The notes beneath the pieces were generated by a model. The model worked only from the letters and a program-made list of their open reading frames with translations, made no database searches and was not told where the DNA came from. 64,000 nt of DNA from Candidatus Micrarchaeota archaeon (lineage in GTDB: Archaea > Micrarchaeota > Micrarchaeia > Anstonellales > Bilamarchaeaceae). A program made the translations under genes and the position numbers. The stretch is taken from assembly GCA_030648615.1 (NCBI GenBank), contig JAUSHJ010000045.1:25071-89070 (forward strand), read 5' to 3'. Of this stretch, positions 7,695 to 48,634 are shown piece by piece (the stretch's first letter is position 1; each line of letters begins with the position of its first letter).

Positions 7695-7776
7695 CCCAAT
7701 TGTTGCAATGCAACAATGGGCATCTTGTCGCTCAACGCGACAAGCTTGTTGTCCGTTAGGACAATTCATATGAATT
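7695..7776. repeat. Tandem-hairpin element, copy 1
   Basis: CCC-a-ATTGTTGCA-a-TGCAACAAT-GGG; CAT-CTTGTCGC-tcaac-GCGACAAG; TTGTCC-gtta-GGACAA. Confidence 0.9.
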
Positions 7777-7946
7777 ACCTAAAACGTCTTGTGGTGGGTG
7801 TAAAAATGTTTAATTCTTAACACGCTACGAAGACTAAAACCTTTTTCTCTTGCATTGCCCTACATTGACAAATCGCTCTTAGCGACAGCCGAACAGGGTT
7901 GCCAAATTAAAAGTATAGAGTAAATATGAAAAGAAAGGTTTAAATA

Positions 7947-8555
7947 TCAACTGGTGTGTTTTCCAAAATCTTTTGTTTCTCCATTAGCAGGTTGAACTTC
8001 GAATAATTTTAACTTTTCTTCACTTAGAGAATCAACAGTAAGACGAGTTACTAGCTCAGTGTAAAAAAAATGCATACCTTTTTTTGCCCACGCATAAATA
8101 AGCATAATTGCAGTTGCAGCCATGACAGCAAATGCCCATTTTCTTGCAGGCTCACCTAAATCACGCGCATGATCAATTAAACGATTTATCAGAAATGCAA
8201 CCGGCGTAATCACTGACCAAAAAGTACCCACTAAAGTAATAGTTGCAATGCTTACTCTGGCATGCATATAAGCAATTTTTCTTGCTTCCATAACTGCAGT
8301 TTCATCTAGTTTTTTTGATTCTGAAACCATTGGTGTCGCAATGAGAGCACGATCTAATCTACGCATATGTAATACTTCATGAAATATATAAGAACCGGAT
8401 TTACCTATGCCGGCATCTTCTAAATGCAATTTGTCTCCTCTTAATGATTGTGCTTTCAACCGATCTAACTTAAAACGATTTATTCCACTTGGAAGCAGGT
8501 ATGCTCTTTCGAAAGGTTCTTTGAATACCATTTTTCGTTTTATATCGATTGCCAT
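7947..8555 (-). CDS. Orphan two-TM membrane protein (YxxxExxxMR family)
   Basis: Paralog of 8616..9146; two C-terminal hydrophobic segments; AGGTGA SD. Confidence 0.75.
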   Translation of the reverse strand: MAIDIKRKMVFKEPFERAYLLPSGINRFKLDRLKAQSLRGDKLHLEDAGIGKSGSYIFHEVLHMRRLDRALIATPMVSESKKLDETAVMEARKIAYMHARVSIATITLVGTFWSVITPVAFLINRLIDHARDLGEPARKWAFAVMAATAIMLIYAWAKKGMHFFYTELVTRLTVDSLSEEKLKLFEVQPANGETKDFGKHTS

Positions 8556-8615
8556 AAATTACGCGTCACCTGTTTTTCCTGAAGTTTGTTAAACATCGAA
8601 TAATTTTAACTTTTC

Positions 8616-9146
8616 TTAACTTAGAGACTTTCCAAGGAAAAAATCTATTAGCCAGTTAACATAGGATTGAAGAACATCTTGTCCACTTTTGAAACTAGTC
8701 ATAATTGCAGTTGCAACCATAACAGCAACTACCCATTTTCTTGCAGGCTCTATAAAAATCGCTATAGATGCTGCTACTTCACCCGCTAAAAGAGTTATAC
8801 CAACTGCATCAATAGATGCAATGAATAACCGAGCACGCATATATGCATTTTTTCTTTCTCCCATTATTTCTGCTTCCGTAAATTTTTTAAATTCACTGTC
8901 GATGGGAGTTGCAGTAAGCGCACGATCTAATTTACGCATATGACTTATTTCACTGCCAGTATAAACACTCAGACTTATCATAATAGTTGTATCTTCTAAA
9001 AGCAAATTATTTCTTGCCAGTACATTTGACCTTAATTTAGCTAAATTGACAAATTTATTAAGGACCGGAAGTACTTTTTCAAATGGTTCTTTAAATAGCA
9101 TTTTTCTATCTAGACCAAATAATTTTCTAGTTAAATCAGTTCCCAT
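8616..9146 (-). CDS. Orphan two-TM membrane protein (YxxxExxxMR family), C-terminally shortened
   Basis: Shares KMxFKEPFE, HMRxLDRAL, EPARKW with 7947..8555. Confidence 0.75.
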   Translation of the reverse strand: MGTDLTRKLFGLDRKMLFKEPFEKVLPVLNKFVNLAKLRSNVLARNNLLLEDTTIMISLSVYTGSEISHMRKLDRALTATPIDSEFKKFTEAEIMGERKNAYMRARLFIASIDAVGITLLAGEVAASIAIFIEPARKWVVAVMVATAIMTSFKSGQDVLQSYVNWLIDFFLGKSLS

Positions 9147-9191
9147 AAATAACACTAAATTATAATTAGTATAAAAAGGTTTTAAATAGTG

Positions 9192-9626: not shown

Positions 9627-9630
9627 AATT

Positions 9631-10197: not shown

Positions 10198-10226
10198 TTG
10201 TGTTAACCTTTTTTTACAATGCAAAA

Positions 10227-10661: not shown

Positions 10662-10689
10662 AAAAATTACCCCTCATTTTTGTAAATAT

Positions 10690-11766: not shown

Positions 11767-11788
11767 ATAAAAATCACCATTTTTATAT

Positions 11789-11818
11789 ATTTGTCGGCAT
11801 TTTTTCTTGACGACAAAT
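11789..11818. repeat. Solo hairpin unit of the tandem-hairpin family
   Basis: ATTTGTCG-gcattttttcttga-CGACAAAT just upstream of the rpoA2 SD. Confidence 0.6.
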
Positions 11819-11848
11819 CATAAATTTTTCACCTTGTAAATATTATTT

Positions 11849-12247: not shown

Positions 12248-12268
12248 TGTATCTCCATTTAAATATTA

Positions 12269-18127: not shown

Positions 18128-18219
18128 TGAGGACCGACAAATCGAAGTTTCGATTTGTGGTCCACAAAATGCCACTAGCATTTTGTAGGATTTTTGAACA
18201 ACAGTTCAATCAATCCTCA
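18128..18219. repeat. Multi-hairpin element of inverse polarity (ACAA...TTGT)
   Basis: GGACC-g-ACAAATCGAA-gt-TTCGATTTGT-GGTCC; ACAAAATGC-cacta-GCATTTTGT; TTGAAC-aaca-GTTCAA. Confidence 0.75.
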
Positions 18220-22476: not shown

Positions 22477-22540
22477 CTCGATTGTTCTGTGGAACAATGG
22501 GCATATTGTCGCCGTAGCGACAATCATGTCGCGACAGCCG
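22477..22540. repeat. Tandem-hairpin element, copy 2
   Basis: CTC-g-ATTGTTC-tgtg-GAACAAT-GGG; CAT-ATTGTCGC-cgta-GCGACAAT-c-ATG; TGTCGCGACA. Confidence 0.88.
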
Positions 22541-23208: not shown

Positions 23209-23370
23209 TTTATGAAGAAAAACATGTTTTGGGGCGATCTTCAAATACGCAGTATTTGAACGAGCTAGAGAGCGACATTTGCTCTCTGGACAACCGCCCT
23301 TTTGATTAGTTGAGCTAGAGCAATAAAATTGCGGTGTGGTATATGAAAACTGGCAAGATTTTGAAGTGAG

Positions 23371-35191: not shown

Positions 35192-36646
35192 TTATGCGCT
35201 TCCTGAATTCCTTAAATCATAAAGATTCCGATAAATTAAGACATTCGCAACTACGCCAGGCTGGAAACCGTGAGTAATTGAGAGACTTTCGTCATTACCA
35301 TGATAATTATCAGCAGGGGAGTTAAACGCATTGAAAACTACAGGAACGCCCAAAAGAACTTGGTAATACATTGCTATAGGCTCAGTTCCACCACAACCCA
35401 TAAAATCAACTTTTGAAACATCGAAACCAACAGCCATGCCATCGGCAACTGCTTTGAAAGTTGCACTAGAAGTATCCTGCGCAAATGGATGAGCTAAAGA
35501 TTCAGCAACTATAGACAGCGCACTTTTTGAAAGGTTGGTGAATTCTGCTAATCTTCGATAAGCTTCTGCCTTGAACAATTTAAAGACAGCTTTAGGATCC
35601 TGATTTGCTACAAGTCTCATCGTCACGTATGCCTTAACATGGGTAGGTATGAGATTTGCAACTACTAATCCTTCATCAGTTCTGCTAAGCACAGTATGAC
35701 ATTCATAACTCGGTTGAGTCCATATTGTTTCCTGAGCGCTATGACCAGCTAGAGTTTGTATAACTCTTAAACCGTTATTGCGTCTAAAAAGAGCCATGTC
35801 GAAAGGCATTGCATTAAATGCTAAACGTTCAGAATCAGAAAGTATACGAACCGAATCATAAAATCCAGGAATATTAACCTTACCAGTTCGTAGATCCTTC
35901 ATGTCTAAGATTTTATTCAATGCCAATAGTGCATTAACCGTAAGATTTGTACCAGAATGCGGATCATTCGTCCCTAATTTCAGTTCAACATTTGCACCAA
36001 CAAGACCCCTGGCCATAGTAGTCACTACAGGAGAGCTCATTCTTCCAGGTTGAGAATCTGTAAGTATTACTAGATCACATTTCAAAAGTTGCTTATTAGC
36101 TCTAATGAAATTATCCATTTTAGGACTTCCGATTTCTTCTCCACCTTCTATTAAGAATTTAATATTAACTGGAACAGGAATTCCTAAATCTCGCATCATT
36201 TTTACTGCCATAAAATGTGTAAGTACTTGTCCCCAATCGTCGCTAGTACCTCTACCAAAAACTCGAATTTCGCCGCCTCGAGTTACCAGTTTTGGTTTGT
36301 GTGGCTTTGTTACATGCCACTGTTTAGCGGAAGAGGGTTGACCATCATAGTGTCCACCTACTAAAATAGTTGGAGCATTTGGAAGATCGGATTTTATTTC
36401 ACCGTAAACAGTAGGATGACATCCGGGATGATTTATTATCCTGGCATTTGGTACTCCTAAAGCTTTCATCGTATCTCTTACAATTTTTGCCGTTGACATC
36501 TGGTCATCCGGAGTCTTGTTTTTACTAACTGGAGAATCAGCGATAACTGGAAAAAGGAATTGAGTTACTGGTTTAACACCTAAACGTTCAACTGAACGTC
36601 TCACTTGACCAACATCAATAGTTCTTGCTTGTAAAATTGCTCCCAT
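35192..36646 (-). CDS. Divergent M20-family metallopeptidase (dipeptidase-like)
   Basis: GHYDGQP, GRGTSDD, EGGEEIGS, YHGNDE metal-ligand motifs. Confidence 0.85.
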   Translation of the reverse strand: MGAILQARTIDVGQVRRSVERLGVKPVTQFLFPVIADSPVSKNKTPDDQMSTAKIVRDTMKALGVPNARIINHPGCHPTVYGEIKSDLPNAPTILVGGHYDGQPSSAKQWHVTKPHKPKLVTRGGEIRVFGRGTSDDWGQVLTHFMAVKMMRDLGIPVPVNIKFLIEGGEEIGSPKMDNFIRANKQLLKCDLVILTDSQPGRMSSPVVTTMARGLVGANVELKLGTNDPHSGTNLTVNALLALNKILDMKDLRTGKVNIPGFYDSVRILSDSERLAFNAMPFDMALFRRNNGLRVIQTLAGHSAQETIWTQPSYECHTVLSRTDEGLVVANLIPTHVKAYVTMRLVANQDPKAVFKLFKAEAYRRLAEFTNLSKSALSIVAESLAHPFAQDTSSATFKAVADGMAVGFDVSKVDFMGCGGTEPIAMYYQVLLGVPVVFNAFNSPADNYHGNDESLSITHGFQPGVVANVLIYRNLYDLRNSGSA

Positions 36647-36727
36647 TTGGATACCCCCATAATTAGTTTACGTAGAATTAATTTTAGTACAACAATTTAA
36701 AAATTAGTGTCACATTGTTAGTAGTTC

Positions 36728-37618
36728 TTACTCTCCCAAAGAAGGTGGAATCGCTCCACTTTCCTTTTTCTTTCTAGGTCGATAGGATTTCTTTGGTGTT
36801 GCTACTTCAGACATTGGTTGATAAGATCTGGATTTATACGCACTGCCGCTTGAAGAATTGCCTGAAGAACCCTTTGAAGAATAAACATAGTATGCGATCG
36901 CACCTACAAGTACGACGAAACCAAGTCCTGCCAATAGTAAAAGAATCAGACCAGAATCTAATCCATTACTCGTTGGAATTATTGGAGATTCTGTGTTTTT
37001 AACAGGAGGAATGACTACACTAGTATTTGTTTCGTTCGTACTAACATTTTGTAACGGAACGATAACTTCAGTATTATTTTCCACAATAACTGGAGGTAAA
37101 TTAGTCGTATTATTAACAGTATTATTCTGAATAGTAACATTCACAATGATAGTTTCATTATTTTTAGGTGGTACTACCACCGGAGGCAATACAACAGGGC
37201 AAAGTGAAAATTGTAATTTAACAGTATCAGAAGGCCTATAGGCATCCTGAACAGCAATAATTTGATACGTGCCAGGCTTAATTAACAAAACAGATGTTTC
37301 TCCGATAATATTAGTAATATTATTTGCTACCTCACCAATATAGGGATCAACTAATAAAAGTCTCACGGCACCGCCAGTTACATAATTTCCATTTAAAGCA
37401 TCAGTAGTAATAATTTTAATATTCGCAGAACTATCGGAATTACATGTAACTGAATAGTTGATAGCCATATCTCTTCTTGGAGAGTTATTAGGATTATCTT
37501 GTTGGGTAGGCGCAGGATCAAATTTAAGTGAATTGCCATGTATCAAAGGCAATGCAACTGAAGCAAACAAAAACATTATCGATAAAACTACTGCCACGTC
37601 ATATTTTGATATTTTCAT
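36728..37618 (-). CDS. Hypothetical surface glycoprotein (signal peptide, beta domain, N-x-T-rich linker, C-terminal TM)
   Basis: Probable start MKISKY with GGTGA SD; many NxT sequons. Confidence 0.7.
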   Translation of the reverse strand: MKISKYDVAVVLSIMFLFASVALPLIHGNSLKFDPAPTQQDNPNNSPRRDMAINYSVTCNSDSSANIKIITTDALNGNYVTGGAVRLLLVDPYIGEVANNITNIIGETSVLLIKPGTYQIIAVQDAYRPSDTVKLQFSLCPVVLPPVVVPPKNNETIIVNVTIQNNTVNNTTNLPPVIVENNTEVIVPLQNVSTNETNTSVVIPPVKNTESPIIPTSNGLDSGLILLLLAGLGFVVLVGAIAYYVYSSKGSSGNSSSGSAYKSRSYQPMSEVATPKKSYRPRKKKESGAIPPSLGE

Positions 37619-37639
37619 CGAGAAATCACCGCGTGCATT

Positions 37640-37725
37640 TCCGATTGTTCGATGTTTCGAACAATGGACATATTGTTGCGTTGCGCAACAATCTTGTCGA
37701 GACATTTGTCCTGCATGGGACAAAT
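37640..37725. repeat. Tandem-hairpin element, copy 3
   Basis: TCC-g-ATTGTTCGA-tgtt-TCGAACAAT-GGA; CAT-ATTGTTGCG-ttg-CGCAACAAT; ATTTGTCC-tgcatg-GGACAAAT. Confidence 0.9.
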
Positions 37726-37854
37726 CGTAAAGTCGCCATTGAGTATTAAAGAAGCAATCTTTATAAAGTTTTAGAGAGCAAAAAATTACGTTAGAATGAT
37801 AAACTAGTTCAATTAATTCAGAAACTAAGGCGATTTACCAAGGGGGATGGAACA

Positions 37855-38154
37855 ATGGAAGAAACGACTACAGTACAGCCTAGAAAAGATGAAAATGTTA
37901 TTTATGTAGGAAAAAAACCTACTATGAGTTATGTATTAGCAACCATAACTCAATTCAATAATGGAGCTGAATCAGTAATACTCAAAGCTAGAGGCAAATT
38001 AATATCTACAGCTGTCGATACTGCGGAAATAGTAAGAAACAGATTTATGCCTAATTGTAAAATCGCAGACATAAAAATAAAAACTGAAGAACTTACTTCT
38101 GAAGATGGATCTCTAAACAAAGTATCTGCCATAGAGATAACTATTCAAAAATAA
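37855..38154 (+). CDS. albA: DNA/RNA-binding protein Alba
   Basis: [43 protein letters not shown]. Confidence 0.96.
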
Positions 38155-38182
38155 TAATTAGTTTTTGAATAAGGGTGATTGA

Positions 38183-38794
38183 TTGGCTATAATGTTGGAT
38201 AAACAAGGTATTGCAATAGCAGTAATGATGGCAGTGGCCATTGTTTACTTTAGCAATGCGAATTACTTATTACTTATACTAGTTTTTTACGCTCTCGCCC
38301 TCATGGTTACTAAATACGAGTATAAAAGAAAAAAAGACCAGGGAATTTACGAACATGAAAGAAGTTGGGAAAATGTACTTTCAAACGGTCTCGTACCAAC
38401 CATGTTAGCTGTTGCCAGCCCATATATAGGAAGCGGTGCATTTATTGGAGCTGTATCTGCCATAACCGCTGATAAATTTGCTTCTGAACTAGGAGTTTTT
38501 GACAAAACGCCGCTCTCATTGGAAAATCTTAAACCTGTTAAACCGGGAACCAGCGGAGCAGTGAGCGTACTTGGATTTGTGGTTTCGTTGATGGGCGGTT
38601 GTTTTATAGGTGTAGCTACGATGTTTATCTTCAATAAAACTGCTAATGAAGCAATTATAATCGCAGTAATTGGATTAGCAGGTTCAGTTGTAGACAGCCT
38701 GTTCGGAGTGCTGGAAGAAAAAGGATTCGGAACTAAAGGTACGACAAATATGATTTGTTCGATAACTGGCGGACTACTTGGATATTTTAGGTGA
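38183..38794 (+). CDS. DUF92/TMEM19 family membrane protein
   Basis: RSWENVLSNG, ADKFASELG, PGTSGAVSVLG. Confidence 0.9.
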   Translation: MAIMLDKQGIAIAVMMAVAIVYFSNANYLLLILVFYALALMVTKYEYKRKKDQGIYEHERSWENVLSNGLVPTMLAVASPYIGSGAFIGAVSAITADKFASELGVFDKTPLSLENLKPVKPGTSGAVSVLGFVVSLMGGCFIGVATMFIFNKTANEAIIIAVIGLAGSVVDSLFGVLEEKGFGTKGTTNMICSITGGLLGYFR

Positions 38795-38801
38795 TTTCTC
38801 G

Positions 38802-39491
38802 ATGAAAACATTTGTATTATGCGGCGGACTTGGAACAAGACTTAGACCACTTACACTAAAAACGCCAAAGCCAATGCTTTTAGTTGGTGGAAAACCAATA
38901 TTATTTTATGTTATAGATAATTTGAGAAAAAATGGATTTGTTGATATAGTTCTTACTGTAGGGTATTTGAATGAACAGATGAAAGATTACTTCGGTGATG
39001 GTAAAAAATTTGGTGTAAAGATAGAATACCTCATTGAGAAAGAAAGACTGAATACTGCTGGATCAATTTTACCATTTAACGGTAAGCTCAAAGAAACATT
39101 TGCAGTGGTTATGGGAGATCATCTCACTAATGTAAACATGAAAAAAATGCTTGAATTTCACAAAAAAAGTGGTGCAATAGTCACCATCGCACTTCAAACA
39201 CAAAAACTAAAAATAGATTATGGTGTTGTAGATATTGACAACGACAAAGTCGCAGCATTCAGAGAGAAACCTGTTTTGGAACATCTGATAAATACTGGGA
39301 TGTATATCTGCGAACCTCAAATATTTGATTACATAAAAGAAAAAGAGGATTTTGCACATGATGTTTTCCCAAGATTGTTGAAACAAGGCAAAAAGATAGC
39401 TGCTTATCACCTGCCGGATGAATGGTTTGATATTGGACGGCTCAGTGATTATGAAAATGCCGGGGAATTGCTGAAGAGGCTGAATTTATAA
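38802..39491 (+). CDS. Sugar-phosphate nucleotidyltransferase
   Basis: LCGGLGTRLRPLT..PKPM, EKP, INTGMY, WFDIG. Confidence 0.92.
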   Translation: MKTFVLCGGLGTRLRPLTLKTPKPMLLVGGKPILFYVIDNLRKNGFVDIVLTVGYLNEQMKDYFGDGKKFGVKIEYLIEKERLNTAGSILPFNGKLKETFAVVMGDHLTNVNMKKMLEFHKKSGAIVTIALQTQKLKIDYGVVDIDNDKVAAFREKPVLEHLINTGMYICEPQIFDYIKEKEDFAHDVFPRLLKQGKKIAAYHLPDEWFDIGRLSDYENAGELLKRLNL

Positions 39492-39514
39492 ATAGTTATT
39501 AATAGTAAAAACAT

Positions 39515-40087
39515 ATGCGACTGCAATTTAGTCCAAAACAAATGTTTTCTAATTCCTTAAGGACAGTCAGAAATGGCTATTACCTGATTGATGATGTAAC
39601 ACATGCAACGATCCATAAAGTAGGAGATGACGTTGAAAAAGCAAGTAGTAAAGCAACCAAAGGATTGTTCGTTTTGCATAAAGAAAGAGTTGCAAGATTT
39701 ATGACCAGGATAAGTCCGCTCGCTACCGTAGCCACAATGATGAGTAAAAATATGCTAAATATATTACTTCCGGTAGCAATAGCCATGGCATTTGACACGG
39801 TGATTTTTTCAAAAGTAATTAGGTCTTCATCAGAACATGCAAAACGAAATGATGGTACCGAAAGCAGAGCAAATTATTTCCTGACCCTGGCAAGACTACC
39901 TTTTCTTGGTTTGGGGACAATTGCGCTATTGCTCGGAATACGAGAACACGATGCAATTAACTTTGGGATTTCAATATATATGACAGCACATGGGATTGCA
40001 TTTTACCTTGCCAGCTCTTCAAATGGAATGCTTAACAAGGCAAGAGAGTGGCTCATGACGTCTTCGGTAAAACCAACAACCAGTTAG
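39515..40087 (+). CDS. Orphan membrane protein
   Basis: 190 aa ORF with several hydrophobic segments. Confidence 0.6.
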   Translation: MRLQFSPKQMFSNSLRTVRNGYYLIDDVTHATIHKVGDDVEKASSKATKGLFVLHKERVARFMTRISPLATVATMMSKNMLNILLPVAIAMAFDTVIFSKVIRSSSEHAKRNDGTESRANYFLTLARLPFLGLGTIALLLGIREHDAINFGISIYMTAHGIAFYLASSSNGMLNKAREWLMTSSVKPTTS

Positions 40088-40117
40088 ATTTATAAGAGAT
40101 AGATTGTTTTACTAATT

Positions 40118-41179
40118 ATGGAAATTTCTCAGGAAATGTTGGCTAGAGCAAAAAATAAAGGCAAGCTAATTCTTCATGATGAAGAGATAAAATACTCCAG
40201 ATTTCGGGAAGGTTCTGGTAAAATACCACGAGGAACAGTTTTGATTGGTGAAAGAATAATCTTTGGTTTTCCACACATTAAACGAATTTTCACGTTACAA
40301 AAAGGACTAGAAAAAAATATAACTGAGGACGAGTTTTACATAGAAGAGAAAATAGATGGATTCAATGTACGTGCTATATTGATTGATGGAAAGATTTTTG
40401 CATTTAGTAGAGGTGGATTCGTTGATCCTTTTGTAACTGAAAAAGTGAGAGAGATACAACTAGAAAAGTTTTTCTCTGATTATCCTAATTCCGTACTTTG
40501 TGGAGAGATGATTGGTAGAACACCTTATACCCGAAATGATTTTGAGCCTAAACTGCTTGTGTTCGACATTATGAATGCCGATGGAGAGTACGTGGAAGTT
40601 GAAAAAAAGTACGAAATACTAAAAAATTATAAAATTGATAGCGTCCCTACTTTTGGAAGATTTACTATAAAAAATATGGAAAAAATAAAACAAGTTGCAT
40701 TGAAACTCATGAAAGAAAAGAAAGAAGGCATGGTAATCAAAAGCAGAATTAGCAACCGCTGTAAATATGTGAATCCGTTTGCTGACATCCATGACATTAT
40801 TGGTAATGCAAGAATTATGTTCGACATGCCTTCTGGCTTTTTCATCCAGCGCGTTTTACGTTCAGCGATGTTTATTAGAGATTTCAAACTGGATGAAAAC
40901 AAGTACGCAAAAGAACTTGGCAGTGCATTTTATGGGAAACTTATTGAAACGCTAAAAGAAGTAGAAAAAGGAAAACTTATTGCAGAAGAATTTGAGATTT
41001 CCATAAAAGATGTTTCTATCTGGAACAAAATAGTAAAGCACATGGGAAAAGAGATAAAACTTGAGAAGATTTCGGAAAAGAAAGAGAATGGAAAATTAAG
41101 AATAAAATTTAGAAAAATATACAAGAGAACAAATCAGAAATTCCGGGAATTTTTATCCGGAAAGGGAATTGAGGATTAA
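40118..41179 (+). CDS. rnl: ATP-dependent RNA ligase, Rnl3/Pab1020 family
   Basis: GFPHIKR, motif I EEKIDGFNVR, FSRGGF, LCGEM, EGMVIK, KYV. Confidence 0.9.
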   Translation: MEISQEMLARAKNKGKLILHDEEIKYSRFREGSGKIPRGTVLIGERIIFGFPHIKRIFTLQKGLEKNITEDEFYIEEKIDGFNVRAILIDGKIFAFSRGGFVDPFVTEKVREIQLEKFFSDYPNSVLCGEMIGRTPYTRNDFEPKLLVFDIMNADGEYVEVEKKYEILKNYKIDSVPTFGRFTIKNMEKIKQVALKLMKEKKEGMVIKSRISNRCKYVNPFADIHDIIGNARIMFDMPSGFFIQRVLRSAMFIRDFKLDENKYAKELGSAFYGKLIETLKEVEKGKLIAEEFEISIKDVSIWNKIVKHMGKEIKLEKISEKKENGKLRIKFRKIYKRTNQKFREFLSGKGIED

Positions 41180-41193
41180 CTTTGCAGACCACT

Positions 41194-41315
41194 CCCAATT
41201 GTTCGATGTTTCGAACAACACGATTGTCCGGCGTACCGGACAATGTGCGCATTGTCGCGCTCGACAATTGCGTGGGCATATTGTTGCGTAGCGCAACAAT
41301 AATGTCGTGGCGGCA
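41194..41315. repeat. Tandem-hairpin element, copy 4 (with nested 54-bp hairpin pair)
   Basis: TTGTTCGA-tgtt-TCGAACAA; ATTGTCCGG-cgta-CCGGACAAT; ATTGTCG-cgct-CGACAAT; ATTGTTGCG-tag-CGCAACAAT. Confidence 0.92.
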
Positions 41316-41321
41316 GATCAA

Positions 41322-41855
41322 TTATATCGATAATTTTACGTAATCAATCAAATCATAACGCATACTTAATCCACTTTTTCTTTTCTTGGCCAAGTTCTGT
41401 ACGAAGCCGAGTTTCATATAGAAATCTATTGCTTTTTCGTATGCGTCAACAGTTACAAACCTACAACCAATTTCCTTAAGGATAGAAGATGCAATTTTAC
41501 CCATAGCTACCTTAACTAAAAATGTACCTATGCCAAGCTTTGCAAAATTTTTATGAACTGCCAACCTGCCTATCTTAACAGCTGGATATTCCCCCAACCT
41601 TTGTTTTGGTTCAGACATTGCTTCTTTTTCTCCTAAATCTAAACGGATGGAATCTGAAGAAAGACTAAAATAACCAACAATTTGGTTTTTGTGCAAACAT
41701 AAATAGGTAATTGCTAAAGCACCATTTTGATAAAGTAAAGCATCATCTTTAAGAAAAGAATTAAGATCTGAGTCACCACAATCAAAAGCAAGTAGATCGA
41801 AACCCGCTGAAAGTTTTACGATATCCAATTTATTAAAATCTATAATGTCTTGCAT
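41322..41855 (-). CDS. GNAT-family acetyltransferase, probable toxin
   Basis: FDCGDSDLNSFL, YPAVKIGRLAV, GIGTFL, GCRFVTVDAY, FYMKLGF. Confidence 0.88.
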   Translation of the reverse strand: MQDIIDFNKLDIVKLSAGFDLLAFDCGDSDLNSFLKDDALLYQNGALAITYLCLHKNQIVGYFSLSSDSIRLDLGEKEAMSEPKQRLGEYPAVKIGRLAVHKNFAKLGIGTFLVKVAMGKIASSILKEIGCRFVTVDAYEKAIDFYMKLGFVQNLAKKRKSGLSMRYDLIDYVKLSI

Positions 41856-41862
41856 TAAACCA

Positions 41863-42015
41863 CTAAAATGGTTTTTTTATATATAATTCGATACATTCTT
41901 TGATAAACTGAGCCTTCTTAAAACTAGGGTTAACCTCTGCATTTTCAGTTTCTTCATAGAACCTTTTTGCATCCTCTCCTTTTAGGATAGGAGTAGACTC
42001 GATTGGTTTTGCCAT
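41863..42015 (-). CDS. 50-aa putative antitoxin of the GNAT toxin
   Basis: Manual translation MAKPIESTPILKGEDAKRFYEETENAEVNPSFKKAQFIKECIELYIKKPF directly upstream of GNAT. Confidence 0.75.
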   Translation of the reverse strand: MAKPIESTPILKGEDAKRFYEETENAEVNPSFKKAQFIKECIELYIKKPF

Positions 42016-42129
42016 GTTTATACCTAACAAGATTATTTATAATCCTTATTTAAAAGTTATCGAATTTCAGGTGGAAAGGTGATTGAGGATTGAGTAACAA
42101 TTTAAACATATGTGAACAATAAACTACTT

Positions 42130-42777
42130 ATGGCAACACAATTAATTAACAGAAAAACTGCACTCACAGAGCTCACAAGAATTCTTAAAAAAATAGATAG
42201 ACGAGAAGCTTTTCATGAAGTCGGAACTTTAATTGAAAAAATATTCGATCCAAAAACGCCTACATACGAACTGGACAGATTTAAAGTACAGATAATTTTT
42301 TATGAAAACGGAAAGCACATGCTAATTCCTCTGGACACAAAAAAAGCATATGAAGAACTCAGACAAGCATTAGATGAAGTTCTGCGTTTACGAGGCTATA
42401 GAAGTAATATACTGACATATCAGGAACATTGTCTACTAGGAAGCACTCAATCAGAAACTTTTGCCAGAGACCCATATAAACCAATAGGAATACTAAGGAG
42501 GGAATTAGGAATAGAAGAAACAATGCTTGCCAGAAAACTAGAATTGAAAGGCGGTGCCAGAGCATACTTCTACGGATTAAAAAGAGAAGGTATTATCGGA
42601 GTAACTACTTCGCTTGAACCACTTGATACAGAAGGAAGAACAGTGAGAGACCCGAGACCCATTAGCATGGAAAAATTGGATGAAGCACTAGCAAAAGGAA
42701 TACCACTGGAACAAATATTCGATCTCTGTGTAATTCCGTTCGTGAAGGATCCCGAATTTCCATTTAGAAGAGAGTAG
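42130..42777 (+). CDS. Hypothetical protein
   Basis: ORF without recognised family; start approximate. Confidence 0.6.
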   Translation: MATQLINRKTALTELTRILKKIDRREAFHEVGTLIEKIFDPKTPTYELDRFKVQIIFYENGKHMLIPLDTKKAYEELRQALDEVLRLRGYRSNILTYQEHCLLGSTQSETFARDPYKPIGILRRELGIEETMLARKLELKGGARAYFYGLKREGIIGVTTSLEPLDTEGRTVRDPRPISMEKLDEALAKGIPLEQIFDLCVIPFVKDPEFPFRRE

Positions 42778-43353
42778 CTATTTCTTCATCTTCTTAAGCA
42801 TTGCAAACATCTTACTGCCATTAAGCCATTCGCAACCAACCTTATTCGCGAATTTCAAAACACCTTCATCACTACTAACTAAAGTTGCCTCTAACTCTTT
42901 TGCAAGCATAACTAACTCAAAATCCTCTTTACTGTCAAGTAAACCTGCACGAACAGCATCCCTATATTTCTCTCTTAACTTCTGAAGTTTAACATTATTC
43001 TCAGGTTTATTATCCTGAGCATATTCCTCTGCCAATCGCAATCCTTTATTCATGCGACCTCGCACGTCCTCAATGAAATCGTGGAGCACTGCAGCAGGAA
43101 GATAAAGTGCATAAATATTTGGTGCTCTTTTTTTTATATGCAATTCAAATTCACTTGAAATTTTTTCTCCAATAAAATTCTTCAACTCCATGAATATCAA
43201 AGAGGGCATGTAAAACTCTGCATCCAGTTTAGATATCATTTTGATGAAAGATTTTACTGCAAGCGGAGGGGTCTTACCGAATTTCTCCCGTGCATGAGGA
43301 TTTACAAATAATGAAGTATCTAATACAAATCTTCTGGTTAGTACCATAGGCAT
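42778..43353 (-). CDS. HARP protein-only RNase P (Aq880/UPF0278, RNA ligase partner PIN family)
   Basis: RFVLDTSLFVNP, RGRMNKGLRLAE, LREKYRDAVRAGLLDSKED, SSDEG. Confidence 0.92.
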   Translation of the reverse strand: MPMVLTRRFVLDTSLFVNPHAREKFGKTPPLAVKSFIKMISKLDAEFYMPSLIFMELKNFIGEKISSEFELHIKKRAPNIYALYLPAAVLHDFIEDVRGRMNKGLRLAEEYAQDNKPENNVKLQKLREKYRDAVRAGLLDSKEDFELVMLAKELEATLVSSDEGVLKFANKVGCEWLNGSKMFAMLKKMKK

Positions 43354-43389
43354 GAACTCAAGGACAAGGATTAAATATATTGCTGAAAA

Positions 43390-43480
43390 AGGACAAAATA
43401 ATAAAAATTTTGTCCTGTTGTAAATTCTTATAGAATTTACAGTAGAACTAGAAGCCCCAGGATTCCAAATCTGGAACCTG
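43390..43480. repeat. Three adjacent hairpins upstream of HARP
   Basis: AGGACAAAAT-aataaaa-ATTTTGTCCT; TGTAAATTCT-tat-AGAATTTACA; CAGG-a-TTCCA-aatc-TGGAA-CCTG. Confidence 0.65.
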
Positions 43481-43515
43481 AGACCCTAGAACCTATATTT
43501 ATTGTCTAGCAACTA

Positions 43516-44739
43516 TTATTTTTTCTTTGTTGTATCTGCACTGGTATTCTTTTTGAATTTCTTATAGATTTTGTATATCACAAAGATAATGATTACTGTA
43601 GGAAGCAGGAATCCGATTAATCCGGATAGCACCAGCAAAGCAGCTGATAGAGCAGCAAAGAATGTCCCTGTAAGATCTTCCAAAGGCAATTGGAGATTTG
43701 TCTTAACAGTAGATTTATCTTCTGTAAGTGTTACATAGACAAGAGACTTCTCCGGTCTATTCTTCTCATCAACATCTTTGCTTAGTTGTTTGACTTCTCC
43801 CAGAGCCTTGGCTTTCTCCATGAAAGAATCGAGCTTGTTCGAAGAAACTTGCACTACAGCATAGTATGTTTTCTGACCTGTTGATTCTACGAATCTAAGA
43901 GAACTGATTGATCCTCCTTCATCTGCAACTACAGCCTTAAGCGAATCAAGTGAAGTTGAAAGTTTCCCCTCATTTACCTTAACAGTCATATCTCCTTCTT
44001 TTGCTTCCGATGCAGCAACATCTTCATAGAGATCAAGAGTTATTGTTGACTTTTGTATCTTCCCTTCAAGTGTCCCCTTTTCATTTTTTAACTGTTCTAT
44101 TTCTGTTTCTATTCTTGTAATTTCTCTCTCAACAGTTATCAAATCTTCTACTAGTTCACTTTTATTATAAAGAATATAAAGTCTCTGCAACTCGATGTTT
44201 TTGTTTTGCAATCTTAGATCCAGATCACGATATTGTTTTGTAACATCTTCGATATTTACATTTGCTCCTTTTAATTCACCTAAATTTTTCAACTGTTCAA
44301 AAACACTATCAAATTTTTCAGGAGAAATCTTAAATGAAATAGAATAATGTTTTTGACCACTATATTCATCGTAAGATGTTGAAATTACGGTTCCACCTTG
44401 GGTTTCTACTATGCCTGTGGCTCCCTTTACTTTTTCATCAAGCTGACCACGTTCAAGCTTTATAGATATGGAGCCTTCTTTTGTTTTTAACGGCTGTTCA
44501 CCAGTAAACGTATCTGAAACCTTAGCTTCGTAATTAGCCCCGTCACTTAATGGAGCGTCTGAATAAGAAATAGAATTCTCATCTGAAAATGTATTAGAAG
44601 AAGATGTTACAGGAAAATAATCTGAACTAGATATATCATTTTTTTGTTCAGTAGTAGAATTAATTCCGGATAGACCAGCACATCCTGCAGACAGCAAGAA
44701 AATTCCAAACAGCAAAATAAAGAAAATGTTCAATTTCAT
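43516..44739 (-). CDS. DUF4349-like lipoprotein with duplicated domain and C-terminal TM
   Basis: LSAGC lipobox, EDVTKQYRDL, LITVEREITRIETEIEQL; GG.I.S...LGE repeated twice. Confidence 0.8.
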   Translation of the reverse strand: MKLNIFFILLFGIFLLSAGCAGLSGINSTTEQKNDISSSDYFPVTSSSNTFSDENSISYSDAPLSDGANYEAKVSDTFTGEQPLKTKEGSISIKLERGQLDEKVKGATGIVETQGGTVISTSYDEYSGQKHYSISFKISPEKFDSVFEQLKNLGELKGANVNIEDVTKQYRDLDLRLQNKNIELQRLYILYNKSELVEDLITVEREITRIETEIEQLKNEKGTLEGKIQKSTITLDLYEDVAASEAKEGDMTVKVNEGKLSTSLDSLKAVVADEGGSISSLRFVESTGQKTYYAVVQVSSNKLDSFMEKAKALGEVKQLSKDVDEKNRPEKSLVYVTLTEDKSTVKTNLQLPLEDLTGTFFAALSAALLVLSGLIGFLLPTVIIIFVIYKIYKKFKKNTSADTTKKK

Positions 44740-44847
44740 AATTTATATTAAAAAGTAAAAGAATAAGAATGATTCGAATTTGTTAACATTTGCCCTAAAC
44801 ATTTTACTTTCTAGCAATCGCTCTGCCCTCTAGCAATAACTCTACCT

Positions 44848-44979
44848 CTCAATTGTCCAATATTTTGGACAACATTATTGTCCAGCGGGACAATATGCAT
44901 CTTGTTGCTCATAGCAACAAGCTTTGACGCATCTGCGTCAAATTTTGTCAGGATTTTTATCATCCTGACAAAGCTTGTC
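44848..44979. repeat. Tandem-hairpin element, copy 5 (five hairpins)
   Basis: TTGTCCAA-tatt-TTGGACAA; ATTGTCC-agcg-GGACAAT; CTTGTTGCT-cat-AGCAACAAG; TTTGACGCA-tc-TGCGTCAAA; TTTGTCAGGAT-ttttatc-ATCCTGACAAA. Confidence 0.92.
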
Positions 44980-44985
44980 TACCAA

Positions 44986-46035
44986 CTATATTAACTTAAT
45001 TAACCCTCTTCCTATTTCTGGAATATTCCCACCGAGCAGACTAGTTGTTGAAAGTACGAATGAAAAAACTATTACCATTGAAATCATTGGCAAGAAACAT
45101 ACTGATACGGTAAGTTGTTTGAGAATTGCAGGCGAAAGGACATTGGTCAATGAATCTATGTCGCCCCTGTAAGCATTAATCCATGAATTAACCTCATAAA
45201 CTTTTGATGGATTAGCATAGCCACAGTATTGAACTTCTTCAAGAGCAGGTAATGCACATACGTAAGCCACTGGATTATGAGTAATAGAATTAGAAACAGC
45301 GGTTGGATCAGCTAAAGTGGGTTGACCCATAAAACTTGGTCTTATAACAGGCAAAGAAATCGCTGATGAGATAATATAGGTAAACGGAAATATAAAATAC
45401 AACCCTAAAGAAAGCGCCATAACATAACCTCCTGCACCTCGAGTAGGTGGAAATGCACGAAGAATAACACCTAAACTTAAAATGAAAAGACCATATGAAC
45501 CTATGAACTTAGATATGTGAATAAGCAGATAATAAAAAAACATGTAGAATTGTGTTAATTCTGTGGCATTTTTTATGCGCTCAGCAAGTATCTTAAAACC
45601 AAAACCGCTTGCATGCTCACTCATGAATATTTCCATATATACAGATGTACCGGCTTCAACTGGTATGCTAGCGACATAGAGAGAACGCATTAAAGTTCGA
45701 GCACATGCTGCTGCCGGATCCATGTACATTATCATAATATCAGTAAGATGTGTACCAGGAGGAAAAACAATCTGACCTGGAAGTAAGCCTACTGAAGTTG
45801 CATAAAGATTCGTAGCTATACTTACTAGCATGCTCTCTCCGCCTGTGACAAATGTAATTAACATGAGAACTATAAAAACAGTTGAAATTGCATAAATAAG
45901 TTCAGTTTTGGCTGTCTGCTCAAGATTTTTTAGATCAAAGACTTTGGAAAACATGTATACTATTGCTGAGGCTATGATAGCTACCATGGAAACTGAAATA
46001 GCAATACCTTCCCAACCTACCACGTATTCTACCAT
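44986..46035 (-). CDS. Polytopic membrane protein, CedA/VirB6-like paralog 6
   Basis: LGVILRAFPPTRGAGG motif shared with five neighbours. Confidence 0.65.
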   Translation of the reverse strand: MVEYVVGWEGIAISVSMVAIIASAIVYMFSKVFDLKNLEQTAKTELIYAISTVFIVLMLITFVTGGESMLVSIATNLYATSVGLLPGQIVFPPGTHLTDIMIMYMDPAAACARTLMRSLYVASIPVEAGTSVYMEIFMSEHASGFGFKILAERIKNATELTQFYMFFYYLLIHISKFIGSYGLFILSLGVILRAFPPTRGAGGYVMALSLGLYFIFPFTYIISSAISLPVIRPSFMGQPTLADPTAVSNSITHNPVAYVCALPALEEVQYCGYANPSKVYEVNSWINAYRGDIDSLTNVLSPAILKQLTVSVCFLPMISMVIVFSFVLSTTSLLGGNIPEIGRGLIKLI

Positions 46036-46036
46036 T

Positions 46037-47266
46037 TTATATCAGCCTCGTAAGTGAATTGACATCTATTTCTTCGCCCAATGTCTTACTAAGATATTTA
46101 ACACTTTGAACAAACAATAATACTTGGAATGCAGGTAATAAATAGCCTATTACCAGTCCCATACCAACAGTAGCCATAGGTATTAGAAATGCGGTTGTTA
46201 CAGCAGCACCGAAAGCTACGGAAATCAGTTTACCTATCATGTCCAAAAAGCCAACGGTAACATTTTTGAAAAAATCAAAAATAATATCTCCCGTGTTCTT
46301 GGACTGTTCTTTTAGCGAGTCTGCTTTAGAATCTACAGTATGTGCAGTAAGGCCATAGATAGTAACACTTGCAAAATTATTTATATTATTATCGTAGACG
46401 TTTATTATGGAATCACTAGTTGTGAACAGCATTATGTATGAGGCATTTACATAGAGAGGATAAAGAAGCATGAAACCTATGGCTAACGCTATCAACGTCC
46501 CACCAAATCTACGAGTTGGAGTAAAACAGCGGAGAAATATACCTATTGGAAGATAATATTTTAGACAAGCTGCAATGGCAAATTTTAGTACGTTCAACTG
46601 TGCGATATTAATAATGAGTGCAATTGCCAGTGAAGTAAAAACATTGTAAATCATTTGTTTTAAAGGTGCGGCAAAACCAGCACCTGGAGTAGCAACTATA
46701 CCTACACCCAATGGTCTTGAATATGGAGTAATGGAAGCTAATTGATCGAGCCAAAGGTTTAGTGCATAATTAACATGCATCCAACCTTCAATCTTATCTG
46801 TTATTGAAGTGAAATATTTTTCAGTAGTATCATAAAAACCTAAACTACTGATAGCAGGATCAGTAATACTGGGAAAAACTGCCCCTAGCGTAAGAGAACA
46901 CATTGGAACCATGGCAGCTATGAAAGAACCTACAATGATTACACTTGCAAAAACTTCAAATAATTCTAATTTTACAAAACTTCTAATAGTATCAGTTTTA
47001 AAAAAATAGGAAAACATGTAAAGAAAAGTCAACAGCATGATAGATGCTACGATAGCTAATGGCCAAAATGGGACCCAGGTAGTCCAGAAATCTGAATCGG
47101 CAGCACCTTGAGAGCATATGAAAGCCTGGAGAGAAGAATTTGCAGGTGCACCTCCTTGACCACCTGTGGATGGTGTAGAACTCAGCCCTTCCATAGTACA
47201 ACCTGAAAGCAAAAGTAGAATTGCAAATGAAAGGACATAGAATAGTTTTTTAGTCATCATATCCAC
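46037..47266 (-). CDS. Polytopic membrane protein, CedA/VirB6-like paralog 5 (lipobox-like LSGC)
   Basis: IGIFLRCFTPTRRFGG motif. Confidence 0.65.
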   Translation of the reverse strand: MDMMTKKLFYVLSFAILLLLSGCTMEGLSSTPSTGGQGGAPANSSLQAFICSQGAADSDFWTTWVPFWPLAIVASIMLLTFLYMFSYFFKTDTIRSFVKLELFEVFASVIIVGSFIAAMVPMCSLTLGAVFPSITDPAISSLGFYDTTEKYFTSITDKIEGWMHVNYALNLWLDQLASITPYSRPLGVGIVATPGAGFAAPLKQMIYNVFTSLAIALIINIAQLNVLKFAIAACLKYYLPIGIFLRCFTPTRRFGGTLIALAIGFMLLYPLYVNASYIMLFTTSDSIINVYDNNINNFASVTIYGLTAHTVDSKADSLKEQSKNTGDIIFDFFKNVTVGFLDMIGKLISVAFGAAVTTAFLIPMATVGMGLVIGYLLPAFQVLLFVQSVKYLSKTLGEEIDVNSLTRLI

Positions 47267-48513
47267 CTTGCAAAAGACATAAAGTTAACATCCACACTCA
47301 ACCAACTCGCCACTTCTCTTGCAAATGTCAGAGTCGTAAAAATATTTATGAATGGCAATAATATGCTTATTATAACGATATAATAAATCGCACTTCGTAT
47401 GAGTTCAAACGCGGTGGTAAGTCCTGCACCTATAAAGAAAGGCACGAATACCCCAGCAGCCAGGAATGAGATTGAAACTACAGTAAGTCCTACTCCCAGA
47501 AGGCCGCTATTAGTTACAAAATCAGTCATAATGCTCTTCTGCGACGTTACATCTACACCTAAACTATACTGAAGAATAGTATGTGCTTCATGAGTTACTA
47601 AAAACATAAACGGATACATTATCGCAAAACTAAAGAAAAGCGCTAATATTGCATCTCCAGCACCTCGTAGTGGTGGAATTGCCCTTAGAACTACACCTAG
47701 AGGAATGAAGAATGTCCATGTCCATTTTTTTATCATGCATAGCATGACTAAATGTATTATCCACTCACCTAAACCTACGGAAAGAAGCTGCATTGTAAAA
47801 CCCAGCATATCGACTATGGGCTTAAGTATTGGACCTAAATTAAATGAAAACATAGCACGCCAGGTTATTCCAAACCACATGGTAGCACTGAAAAGAGTAT
47901 GAATTATTGTATTGTATATCAAAAGAAAACCATAGGCTGAAGAAATTTCAGCTATCATTTGCCTGGAAAATGCCATAGATGCATCTATCATCGTATTCTG
48001 CTGGAGAACTGGATCGGTAGTGGTAAATGTTTTAAATCCATACCAGGTTTGACTTGCTTGCATAAACATAACTATGAATAGCAAAGCCAGAACAGTCCTG
48101 CCAAGTTCAAACATCAAATCCTTTGATACAGCAACAAGATTCTGAGACTGAAACAATTGACTAAACATGTAAATCAGGATTGCAACAAAAAGCACAATTA
48201 GCACAGACATGATGACATAGTTAGTCCATTCTGCACCGAATATGGTTAAATATTCTTTTGGAACACCTGGAACAGTAGAAACCCAGGATGTACCGCAACT
48301 ACCTGGGTCCACAATATCATAAATAGTACTTGCTGCAGCATTTGCTTGAGCACCCCCTCTTGTAAAACCAGGAATGTCATTAACGAATTTACTTATGGTG
48401 TCAATTATACCAGTACTTGGAGGGGGTGAAGTCTGCGCAAATGAAATTGTAGAAAGCAGTAGCACTAGTGCAACCACGAAAAATATTTTTTTGTTATCCA
48501 GTTTGTAATTCAT
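47257..48513 (-). CDS. Polytopic membrane protein, CedA/VirB6-like paralog 4
   Basis: LGVVLRAIPPLRGAG motif; probable start MNYKLD with signal peptide. Confidence 0.65.
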   Translation of the reverse strand: MNYKLDNKKIFFVVALVLLLSTISFAQTSPPPSTGIIDTISKFVNDIPGFTRGGAQANAAASTIYDIVDPGSCGTSWVSTVPGVPKEYLTIFGAEWTNYVIMSVLIVLFVAILIYMFSQLFQSQNLVAVSKDLMFELGRTVLALLFIVMFMQASQTWYGFKTFTTTDPVLQQNTMIDASMAFSRQMIAEISSAYGFLLIYNTIIHTLFSATMWFGITWRAMFSFNLGPILKPIVDMLGFTMQLLSVGLGEWIIHLVMLCMIKKWTWTFFIPLGVVLRAIPPLRGAGDAILALFFSFAIMYPFMFLVTHEAHTILQYSLGVDVTSQKSIMTDFVTNSGLLGVGLTVVSISFLAAGVFVPFFIGAGLTTAFELIRSAIYYIVIISILLPFINIFTTLTFAREVASWLSVDVNFMSFARWI

Positions 48514-48529
48514 AGAATCATCAGTTTGC

Positions 48530-48634
48530 TTTGACATCTTTGATGTCAAATATCCCAATTGTCGTTTGACGACAATGGGCATCTTGTTGCTTCAAGCAAC
48601 AAGCTTGTGTCAGCATTTTTCTGCCCTGCTGACA
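48530..48634. repeat. Tandem-hairpin element, copy 6
   Basis: TTTGACATC-ttt-GATGTCAAA; CCC-a-ATTGTCGT-ttg-ACGACAAT-GGG; CAT-CTTGTTGCTT-c-AAGCAACAAG; TGTCAGCA..TGCTGACA. Confidence 0.92.

What the first reader, a model, noticed from the sequence alone, without database searches (positions are those of the whole stretch)
7695..48634. Dispersed family of covarying tandem-hairpin elements with bulged bases (REP/BIME-like, in an archaeon)
Seen: six intergenic arrays (7695, 22477, 37640, 41194, 44848, 48530) of 3-5 abutting hairpins, all in the same + strand orientation. The stem base (A/C)TTGT...ACAA(T/G) and a GGGCAT-like junction are conserved, while inner stems differ between copies yet pair perfectly (TGCA/TGCA, TCGA/TCGA, CCGG/CCGG, CCAA/TTGG, CGT/ACG, TGCG/CGCA). 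Units come as mirror pairs: NNN-b-ATTGT..ACAAT-N'N'N' with a 5' bulge, then CAT-ATTGT..ACAAT-b-(A/T)TG with a 3' bulge. Established: hairpins with extrahelical bases are the substrates of HUH transposases (IS200/IS605 TnpA, RAYT/REP) and integron integrases (attC). Inference: a structure-selected, non-autonomous mobile or modular element, or an RNA-processing/protein-binding motif, that I do not recognise from archaea. No mobilising enzyme is in the window.
Basis: partly seen in the sequence, partly recalled or inferred. Interest (0 to 1): 0.9.

Follow-up and report, generated by a model that had tools for sequence, protein, structure and literature searches.

The report
Nesting double-hairpin mobile modules in Micrarchaeota
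The six hairpin arrays are real: each is a roughly 50-57-base two-hairpin DNA module inserted precisely into an older small repeat, part of a family of over a hundred copies in this tiny archaeon that also sits in frame inside housekeeping enzymes, and it is likely moved as folded single-stranded DNA by a transposase-type enzyme that is not yet identified.

Summary
Confirmed and reinterpreted. The arrays are nested insertions of one unit, a 48-60 nt pair of abutting hairpins with a 6-nt centre and two single-base bulges. This Micrarchaeota genome holds 112 modules against 0-1 in shuffles. Mobility is shown. Copies of a 130-bp IS200/IS605-type mini-element are empty or filled at three sites. 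Removing nested modules restores canonical ones. Arginyl-tRNA synthetase carries 52 extra codons absent from 10 of 10 orthologues. Insertion is precise, without target duplication, mostly at T^T and often in hairpin loops. Stems are almost pure Watson-Crick and orientation is unbiased, which favours DNA over RNA. The modules fail the REP, IS200/IS605-end and attC tests. No mobilising enzyme was identified. The genome's only HUH candidate is an ordinary IS200 TnpA, and its co-occurrence with modules is weak (p=0.25). I found no description in ten literature searches, but this scan has already noted the family on other DNA, in this genome and in other Micrarchaeota. Verdict: a new variant of non-autonomous palindromic mini-elements, an archaeal analogue of REP/RPE and mitochondrial double-hairpin elements.

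The parts
7695..7748 (+). Family-A double-hairpin module, 54 nt, inserted at T^T at the foot of the host's hairpin
7666..7769 (+). Host mini-element ('F'): follows a TCAT and ends in TCAT; on the - strand it supplies a GGTG ribosome-site-like motif just before the start of ribosomal protein L3 (6721-7665, -)
   Evidence: role as ribosome site inferred
18133..18189 (-).
22477..22528 (+). Family-A module, 52 nt, in the loop (CT^TC) of a short host hairpin ('G'); empty look-alikes of the host occur elsewhere in the genome
37640..37696 (+). Family-A module, 57 nt, inside an F-type host that starts after TCAT at 37615
41194..41304 (+). Outer family-A module (57 nt once the nested one is removed) in the loop of a G-type host hairpin, between convergent genes
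41219..41272 (+). Nested 54-nt module inserted in the 3' arm of the outer module's first hairpin (ACAA^TGGG); predicted to make a four-way junction
   Evidence: parse and DNA fold
44848..44977 (+). Rearranged family-A composite in a 7-nt repeat tract; appears to have lost the stretch between two junctions
   Evidence: the deletion is inferred from the intact form at G000:C27
44923..44974 (+). Different hairpin pair ('C', 52 nt) with a 4-nt direct repeat, inserted into the end of the family-A composite
48554..48607 (+). Family-A module, 54 nt, at AT^TG inside a C-type pair
48530..48638 (+). C-type host pair, which accounts for the first and last hairpins of the sixth array

Best explanation
The arrays are nested insertions of a 48-60 nt non-coding, two-hairpin mobile DNA module, which likely moves as folded single-stranded DNA cut and rejoined by an HUH (IS200/IS605 TnpA-type) enzyme acting in trans. 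SHOWN: the unit (3 bp, bulge, stem-loop; 6-nt centre; stem-loop, bulge, 3 bp); precise insertion without target duplication; preference for T^T and for hairpins, including hairpins of IS200/IS605 mini-elements and of other modules; tolerance inside proteins. PREDICTED from the fold: the two hairpins stack into a dumbbell with both bulges on one strand and the element's two ends meeting midway between them, so two cuts and a reciprocal strand transfer on that strand would release a closed ~54-nt dumbbell circle, and the reverse would insert it. INFERRED: the enzyme reads shape (bulge, 6 bp, bulge) rather than sequence, because stems change completely between genera while the grammar stays. INFERRED and weakest: the enzyme is TnpA or a relative, working without the usual 4-nt guide. 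Confidence is about 0.9 for mobility, 0.75 for a DNA-level single-strand route and 0.45 for an HUH enzyme.
For: Empty versus filled: in the 130-bp mini-element, site 1 has 9 empty and 7 filled copies (plus one filled copy with an altered flank), site 2 has 21 and 2, site 3 has 16 and 3. Sites 1 and 2 are exact insertions at T^T. Sixteen modules appear only after a nested one is removed, and 8 double and 1 triple nestings occur in 18 loci of relatives. ArgRS has +52 codons against 10 of 10 orthologues; a phosphomutase has about +36 residues against 9 of 9. Targets: T at -1 in 78 of 95 and at +1 in 87 of 95; an enclosing stem of 3 bp or more in 38 of 95 against a mean of 16.8 (maximum 29) in 1000 flank permutations. 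DNA level: 161 of 170 Watson-Crick pairs, no GNRA/UNCG loop enrichment, no orientation bias. Shape over sequence: the same grammar with unrelated stems in L203, L211, L213 and L217. For HUH: a one-strand central join needs no homology; an IS200/IS605 transposase above cut-off is the only HUH Y1 found in G000; modules sit in the left-end hairpins of IS200-like elements L013 and L025; the host mini-element was found in 4 of 40 relatives and all four carry TnpA. The single-contig relative G014 has no TnpA hit and 0 modules in 400 kb.
Against: No enzyme is tied to the modules. The module ends do not obey the IS200/IS605 guide rule: no conserved target tetranucleotide. The G000 tnpA has no module beside it and looks like an ordinary IS200. 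TnpA was found in 5 of 11 module-positive and 6 of 25 module-negative family genomes (Fisher p=0.25); the two richest relatives, G035 and G001, had no hit (75% and 89% complete). G004 has TnpA but only 1 doubtful module in 400 kb. No circle or excised allele was seen. Filled copies at each mini-element site carry the same module, so they count as about four events, not 13. Site 3 differs from the empty form by one base. Fewer than half of the targets are demonstrably in hairpins.
Confidence: 0.45

Rival explanations
1. Same mobile modules, but moved by another structure-specific activity: an undescribed strand transferase, or host hairpin/junction nucleases plus a ligase or topoisomerase.
For: The ends break the TnpA and RAYT guide rules. 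Co-occurrence with TnpA is weak. Several unrelated pair families with different end rules coexist in the genome. None of 82 scanned genes flanking modules in relatives is a known mobiliser.
Against: No candidate gene was identified. Precise, repeated joins at one point of the fold are hard to get from general repair (inference).
Confidence: 0.3
2. attC-like sites: the fold rebuilds a tyrosine-recombinase site (inverted arms, 6-nt spacer, extrahelical bases) used by one of the two Xer-like proteins.
For: Arms flank a 6-nt centre and both bulges lie on one strand. Two tyrosine recombinases are encoded.
Against: The join is in the middle of the spacer, not at its edge; an edge crossover does not reproduce the real empty site. 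Donor and target share no core. Both proteins score far below the integron-integrase cut-off (52.7 and 45.9 against 265 bits). No gene cassettes.
Confidence: 0.08
3. RNA route: excised by the archaeal splicing endonuclease, ligated into RNA loops and copied back by a reverse transcriptase.
For: One module lies in a tRNA intron (G000:C54). The genome has an RT. RT was found in 6 of 11 module-positive against 6 of 25 module-negative genomes (p=0.12).
Against: No bulge-helix-bulge geometry. Coding insertions face both ways. No wobble pairs. The RT belongs to a diversity-generating retroelement and is split. In-frame lengths suggest translation rather than splicing.
Confidence: 0.07
4. Not independently mobile: modules arose rarely, hitch-hiked on mini-transposons and were shuffled by recombination, with palindromes kept perfect by arm-to-arm correction.
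For: Many modules sit in larger repeats. Identical hairpins recur in different modules (158 distinct hairpins among 98 modules). Deletions between junctions occur (window 44848; C65:52004).
Against: 95 distinct target sites with sharp, homology-free ends. Bulges are kept while stems are corrected.
Confidence: 0.06
5. A functional RNA or protein-binding motif (processing, termination, regulation) under host selection.
For: Covarying stems. Many copies lie near gene starts or ends.
Against: Both orientations, no relation to gene strand. Inside coding frames and absent from orthologues. No wobble or tetraloops. No Rfam match.
Confidence: 0.04

Closest known systems
REP / BIME / REPIN elements with RAYT (TnpA-REP)
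   Same: Small, dispersed, mostly extragenic imperfect hairpins in mosaic arrays; bulged stems; non-autonomous (PMC3479197, PMC6006769, passages).
   Different: No GTAG foot; cut at T^T, not C^T; hairpins abut with no spacer; stems vary freely; no REP-flanked tnpA. The passages read say that only the IS200 subclass of Y1 enzymes was seen in archaea (PMC6006769) and that REPINs have not been detected there (10.1101/2021.07.10.451892).
Non-autonomous IS200/IS605 derivatives
   Same: Two hairpins, no target duplication. The hairpin foot (CCC..GGG plus an irregularity) resembles the IS end hairpins in these genomes.
   Different: No guide and tetranucleotide logic. The modules are passengers inside such mini-elements, which do begin after and end in TCAT.
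Double-hairpin elements of fungal mitochondria
   Same: Two-hairpin, potentially mobile elements, intergenic and in RNA genes (PMC10085805, passages); no moving enzyme was named in those passages.
   Different: Those are GC-rich and organellar. Here archaeal, with a fixed bulge grammar and nesting. No homology test was possible.
Rickettsia palindromic elements; Methanocaldococcus coding palindromic repeats (Suyama 2005)
   Same: In-frame insertion into conserved enzymes and into RNA genes (PMC10969869, PMC2229807, passages). The archaeal case was seen only as a citation.
   Different: RPEs are 105-150 bp long stem-loops with terminal inverted repeats. These are ~54-nt double hairpins that grow by nesting.
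Cyanobacterial small dispersed repeats (Elhai 2008)
   Same: Recalled, paper not held: very small, structure-conserved, nested, found in 7-nt repeats and mini-transposons. One passage confirms site-specific insertion of SDR5 in HIP1 (PMC5861425).
   Different: Recalled as 21-27 nt with a shared core at the target. Here 48-60 nt and no shared core.
Integron attC sites
   Same: A folded single strand with extrahelical bases on one strand (recalled).
   Different: No GTTRRRY/RYYYAAC core, no cassettes, no integron integrase, central join.

Membership tests
REP/REPIN (RAYT) | Conserved GTAG-type tetranucleotide at the 5' hairpin foot | tested here: not met
   Modules begin directly with the 3-bp foot. 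GTAG lies beside the end in only 5 of 95 sites, all from a 7-nt repeat target (listing).
REP/REPIN (RAYT) | RAYT-class Y1 gene flanked by the repeats | tested here: not met
   The only Y1 in G000 matches IS200/IS605 transposase NF033573 and has no module beside it. The genome is 89.75% complete.
REP/REPIN (RAYT) | Cleavage at C^T | tested here: not met
   Insertion points are mostly T^T, inferred from junctions, not from an assay.
REP/REPIN (RAYT) | Many dispersed imperfect palindromes in mosaic arrays | tested here: met
IS200/IS605 non-autonomous element | No target-site duplication | tested here: met
   Exact insertions at two mini-element sites and in L213 versus L215.
IS200/IS605 non-autonomous element | Insertion 3' of a conserved tetra/pentanucleotide set by a 4-nt guide | tested here: not met
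   Positions -5 to -3 are unconserved. Pairing rule: general form from PMC3479197 passages, base-by-base form recalled.
IS200/IS605 non-autonomous element | Mobilisation by TnpA through a single-stranded circle | not testable with these tools
   Needs biochemistry or circle-junction reads.
Integron attC | RYYYAAC/GTTRRRY core with crossover in it, and an integron integrase | tested here: not met
   No shared core at targets; integrases far below TIGR02249.
MITE (class II) | Terminal inverted repeats and target-site duplication | tested here: not met
   The ends are not inverted repeats of each other, and there is no duplication.
RPE-like coding palindromic elements | In-frame insertion in conserved proteins, absent from orthologues | tested here: met
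   ArgRS, phosphomutase. Translation itself is untested.
Mitochondrial double-hairpin elements | Homology to described DHE families | not tested
   No DHE sequences were fetched; the likeness is architectural only.
Known structured RNA (Rfam 15) | Score at a family's gathering threshold | tested here: not met
   0 matches in the window.

The most novel reading that the evidence does not exclude
A new class of minimal mobile DNA: a ~54-nt dumbbell defined only by shape (bulge, 6 bp, bulge), excised as a closed circle and homed without any guide or homology into DNA hairpins by an undescribed strand-transfer enzyme. It parasitises other mobile elements and itself, builds branched arrays, and adds new loops to essential proteins. 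The enzyme would be a scar-free, hairpin-targeted insertion tool.
Probability: 0.25. Interest if true: 0.88.

Novelty: new variant of a known kind. Interest (0 to 1): 0.68.

Why it matters
REP-type repeats were reported as undetected in archaea (10.1101/2021.07.10.451892). Here a reduced-genome DPANN lineage carries about 68 parsed modules per Mb, and they remodel gene starts, a tRNA intron and essential enzymes. How very small palindromic elements (RPEs, mitochondrial double hairpins, cyanobacterial small repeats) move is, to my knowledge, a long-standing open question. This family has exact ends, known empty sites, a target preference and a short list of candidate enzymes, so the question can be tested in vitro with oligonucleotides.

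Tried and rejected
Enzyme hunt in G000 (89.75% complete): no hit for serine resolvase, IS110, Y2 transposase (67) or TnpB (30, 31). A Y1 profile built from 14 related proteins found only the C47 gene. A HUH-motif scan gave no second candidate. The 17 ORFs flanked by arrays on both sides were read by eye and none looked like a mobiliser. Of 111 ORFs beside modules in relatives, 82 were scanned against Pfam and none was a transposase or recombinase. Lagging-strand or replichore bias: none. Functional strand from wobble: uninformative; folding energy is slightly lower on the - strand in 73 of 95, and I did not treat that as evidence. A universal multiple-of-three rule was rejected: 123 of 185 overall (88) but 0 of 10 in an unbiased 400-kb sample of G013. 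Reads: no RNA holder was listed. Contigs of X1 (possibly the source of this DNA) and X2 showed no joint skipping a module in 36000-50000, and X3 laid nothing; contigs cannot show absence. The arrays at 7695 and 22477 stayed unchecked against reads. Viral contigs: 4 matches, none a double hairpin. No covariance model or R-scape run was made; covariation was counted per stem position instead. Literature: ten full-text searches listed no paper describing this family. Subscription journals are largely not held, and no supplements were read.
Full report
OBSERVATION. The six arrays are present at the stated starts, between or at the ends of housekeeping genes such as ribosomal protein L3, Alba and an RNA ligase. 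The window is G000:C56:25071-89070 of a 1.65-Mb, 76-contig genome. Units of the form TTGT-stem-loop-ACAA form 51 clusters of two or more, against 0 in five shuffles. Sequence-free clusters of abutting perfect hairpins number 164, against 4 and 8, so several pair families coexist. Rfam gives nothing.

THE UNIT. The repeating object is a pair: 3 bp, one bulged base, a 6-10 bp perfect stem-loop; then, with no linker, 3 bp, a second stem-loop, one bulged base. A parser for this grammar finds 112 modules in G000 (96 directly, 16 more after nested ones are removed) against 1 and 0 in shuffles. Lengths over all loci are 48-60 nt. The parser demands perfect stems, so I tested pairing independently. 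Anchored on the junction motif alone, 26 of 28 sites have the upstream and 28 of 28 the downstream hairpin, and 161 of 170 inner pairs are Watson-Crick, with one G-T and one C-A. Inner stem positions show two to four different Watson-Crick pair types. Loops show no GNRA or UNCG enrichment on either strand. Orientation is 27 + to 23 -, neighbours agree 12 to 9, and there is no link to GC skew or gene strand. This points to DNA palindromes rather than an RNA motif (inference).

DISTRIBUTION. A junction pattern matched 12 of 36 same-family genomes (one match does not pair, so 11) and 0 of 24 from other families of the order. A scan of the species-level genome collection gave 74 loci. Of 26 matches in 24 archaeal loci, 23 were true double hairpins, all in records named Candidatus Micrarchaeota; two overlapping loci count two sites twice, and the misses were a contig end, a long loop and one chance hit. 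Of 54 other matches, including 4 viral, none was. I therefore place G000 in Micrarchaeota (inference from kin). The metagenome scan added 39 loci.

MOBILITY. (a) A 130-bp mini-element with about 20 copies follows a TCAT, ends in TCAT and has IS200/IS605-like end hairpins. It is empty or filled at three points: 9 empty and 7 filled (plus one filled copy with an altered flank), 21 and 2, 16 and 3. The first two are exact insertions at T^T with no duplication or loss; the third differs by one base. Filled copies at a site carry the same module, so this is about four events spread by the host element. (b) A short host hairpin is filled at 7 places, including window 22477 and 41194, and empty with the predicted TTC loop at 5. 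(c) Removing nested modules restores canonical ones, most often at ACAA^TGG; 8 double and 1 triple nestings were found in 18 loci of relatives chosen for junction matches. (d) In G028 the related mini-element is empty in L215 and exactly filled in L213. (e) ArgRS has 52 extra codons, holding a nested 108-nt pair, absent from 10 of 10 orthologues. A phosphomutase has about 36 extra residues against 9 of 9 (one orthologue has a shorter insert of its own). Five further apparent coding insertions (PheRS, a methyltransferase-like gene and three others) were not compared with orthologues. One module lies in a tRNA intron.

WHAT THE WINDOW'S ARRAYS ARE. Each is a module inside an older element. At 7695 and 37640 the host is a TCAT-bounded mini-element that lands on ATGA start codons. 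At 22477 and 41194 it is the loop of a short hairpin. At 48554 it is a pair of another family that has short direct repeats. At 44848 the module sits in a 7-nt repeat tract, with such a pair nested in its end.

TARGET. Among 95 distinct sites (50 from G000), -1 is T in 78 and +1 is T in 87; positions -5 to -3 are free. An enclosing stem of 3 bp or more is present in 38, against 16.8 expected (maximum 29 in 1000 permutations). The loops hit include those of IS200/IS605-type end hairpins. Whether the +1 T is chosen in the target or sometimes supplied by the module is unresolved.

LENGTH. In G000, 67 of 98 distinct modules are multiples of three against 34% expected from unit lengths; 9 of 9 hand-picked coding and 58 of 89 other modules are. 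In all, 77% of frames are stop-free against 39% in shuffles. Copies share descent, so these are not independent, and an unbiased sample of G013 gave 0 of 10. The bias is lineage-specific and probably reflects survival in genes (inference).

MECHANISM. The predicted fold puts the two element ends together in the middle of a 6-bp helix between two bulges on the same strand. Excision would need two cuts and one reciprocal transfer on that strand and would give a closed dumbbell; insertion is the reverse. A tyrosine recombinase would cross over at the spacer edge, which does not reproduce the real empty site; a serine recombinase would cut both strands (established chemistry, recalled). HUH chemistry fits. 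The same grammar carries unrelated stems in other genera, so shape is what is conserved. G000 has one Y1 gene, an IS200/IS605 transposase with ordinary ends and no module beside it. It also has two Xer-like proteins below all curated cut-offs and a split DGR reverse transcriptase; there was no hit for resolvase, IS110, Y2 or TnpB. For TnpA: modules lie in IS left-end hairpins in L013 and L025. The host mini-element occurs in 4 of 40 relatives, all with TnpA, against 7 of the other 32 with both tests (kin are not independent). G014 has neither a TnpA hit nor a module in 400 kb. Against: there is no guide logic; TnpA is in 5 of 11 positive and 6 of 25 negative genomes (p=0.25); G004 has TnpA and one doubtful module in 400 kb, while G013 has TnpA and 10. 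I put an HUH mover at 0.45 and another structure-specific activity at 0.3.

COMPARISON AND PAPERS SEEN. Passages only: PMC6006769, PMC10085805, PMC10969869, 10.1101/2021.07.10.451892 (65), PMC2229807, PMC5861425, PMC3479197. Elhai 2008 was not held and is recalled, as are attC anatomy and the base-by-base guide rule. Suyama 2005 and Paquin 2000 were seen only as citations. All other papers were seen as search listings only, and no supplements were read. The family works like REP/BIME, RPE and mitochondrial double-hairpin elements but fails the defining tests for REP, IS200/IS605 ends, attC and classical MITEs. Ten searches listed no description. Family letters A-H are my own labels.

EARLIER SCAN NOTES. 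Consulted after most of the analysis. The scan has reported this family several times, in this genome and in other Micrarchaeota, also without an enzyme. These notes are not independent support. They gave one lead, tRNA introns, which I checked.

VERDICT. Real, mobile, apparently undescribed in print; a new variant of non-autonomous palindromic mini-elements with an unusual shape-defined, self-nesting design and an unidentified mover. Interest 0.68.

Noticed in passing
L179:1288-2395 (G000:C71); table: The reverse transcriptase of a diversity-generating retroelement is split at a run of ten G. In 20 of the 21 RT matches listed in the family, 17 begin at profile position 55-70 in open frames of at most 263 aa. 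This suggests a conserved split, programmed frameshift or phase switch.
   Followed up: no
window 7666-7769, 37619-37729; G000:C15, C38, C44, C65, C69, C70: Mini-elements that follow TCAT and end in a hairpin plus TCAT land on ATGA start codons and bring a GGTG ribosome-site-like motif, apparently rebuilding the translation start. They seem to fit the IS200/IS605 guide rule (recalled).
   Followed up: partly
window 43390-43442 and 12 more sites: Another hairpin-pair family (50-54 nt, one of 103), always followed by TA; no multiple-of-three bias (3 of 13).
   Followed up: partly
window 44923-44974, 48530-48638: A hairpin-pair family whose ends form 3-5 nt direct repeats that vary with the target, so its end rule differs from family A.
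   Followed up: partly
window 23231-23300; G000:C39:29600, C44:42487: A further three-copy hairpin-pair repeat with covarying stems.
   Followed up: no
L018:2278-2841: A nested module pair sits in frame in a gene resembling the DGR target of L179, in the hairpin just after the variable region.
   Followed up: no
G000:C8:12400-12750, C44:53900-54200; L018, L113, L116: A repeat of about 170 bp, found at unrelated loci in several genomes, that is empty or filled with modules at two points.
   Followed up: partly
G000 whole genome: ARAGORN found only 16 tRNA genes, 10 of them interrupted, several at odd positions; many tRNAs may be missed because of introns.
   Followed up: no
window 58092-59447 and 7947-9155: Two pairs of adjacent, similar genes of unknown function (84% over 300 nt; 70-88% in parts).
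   Followed up: no
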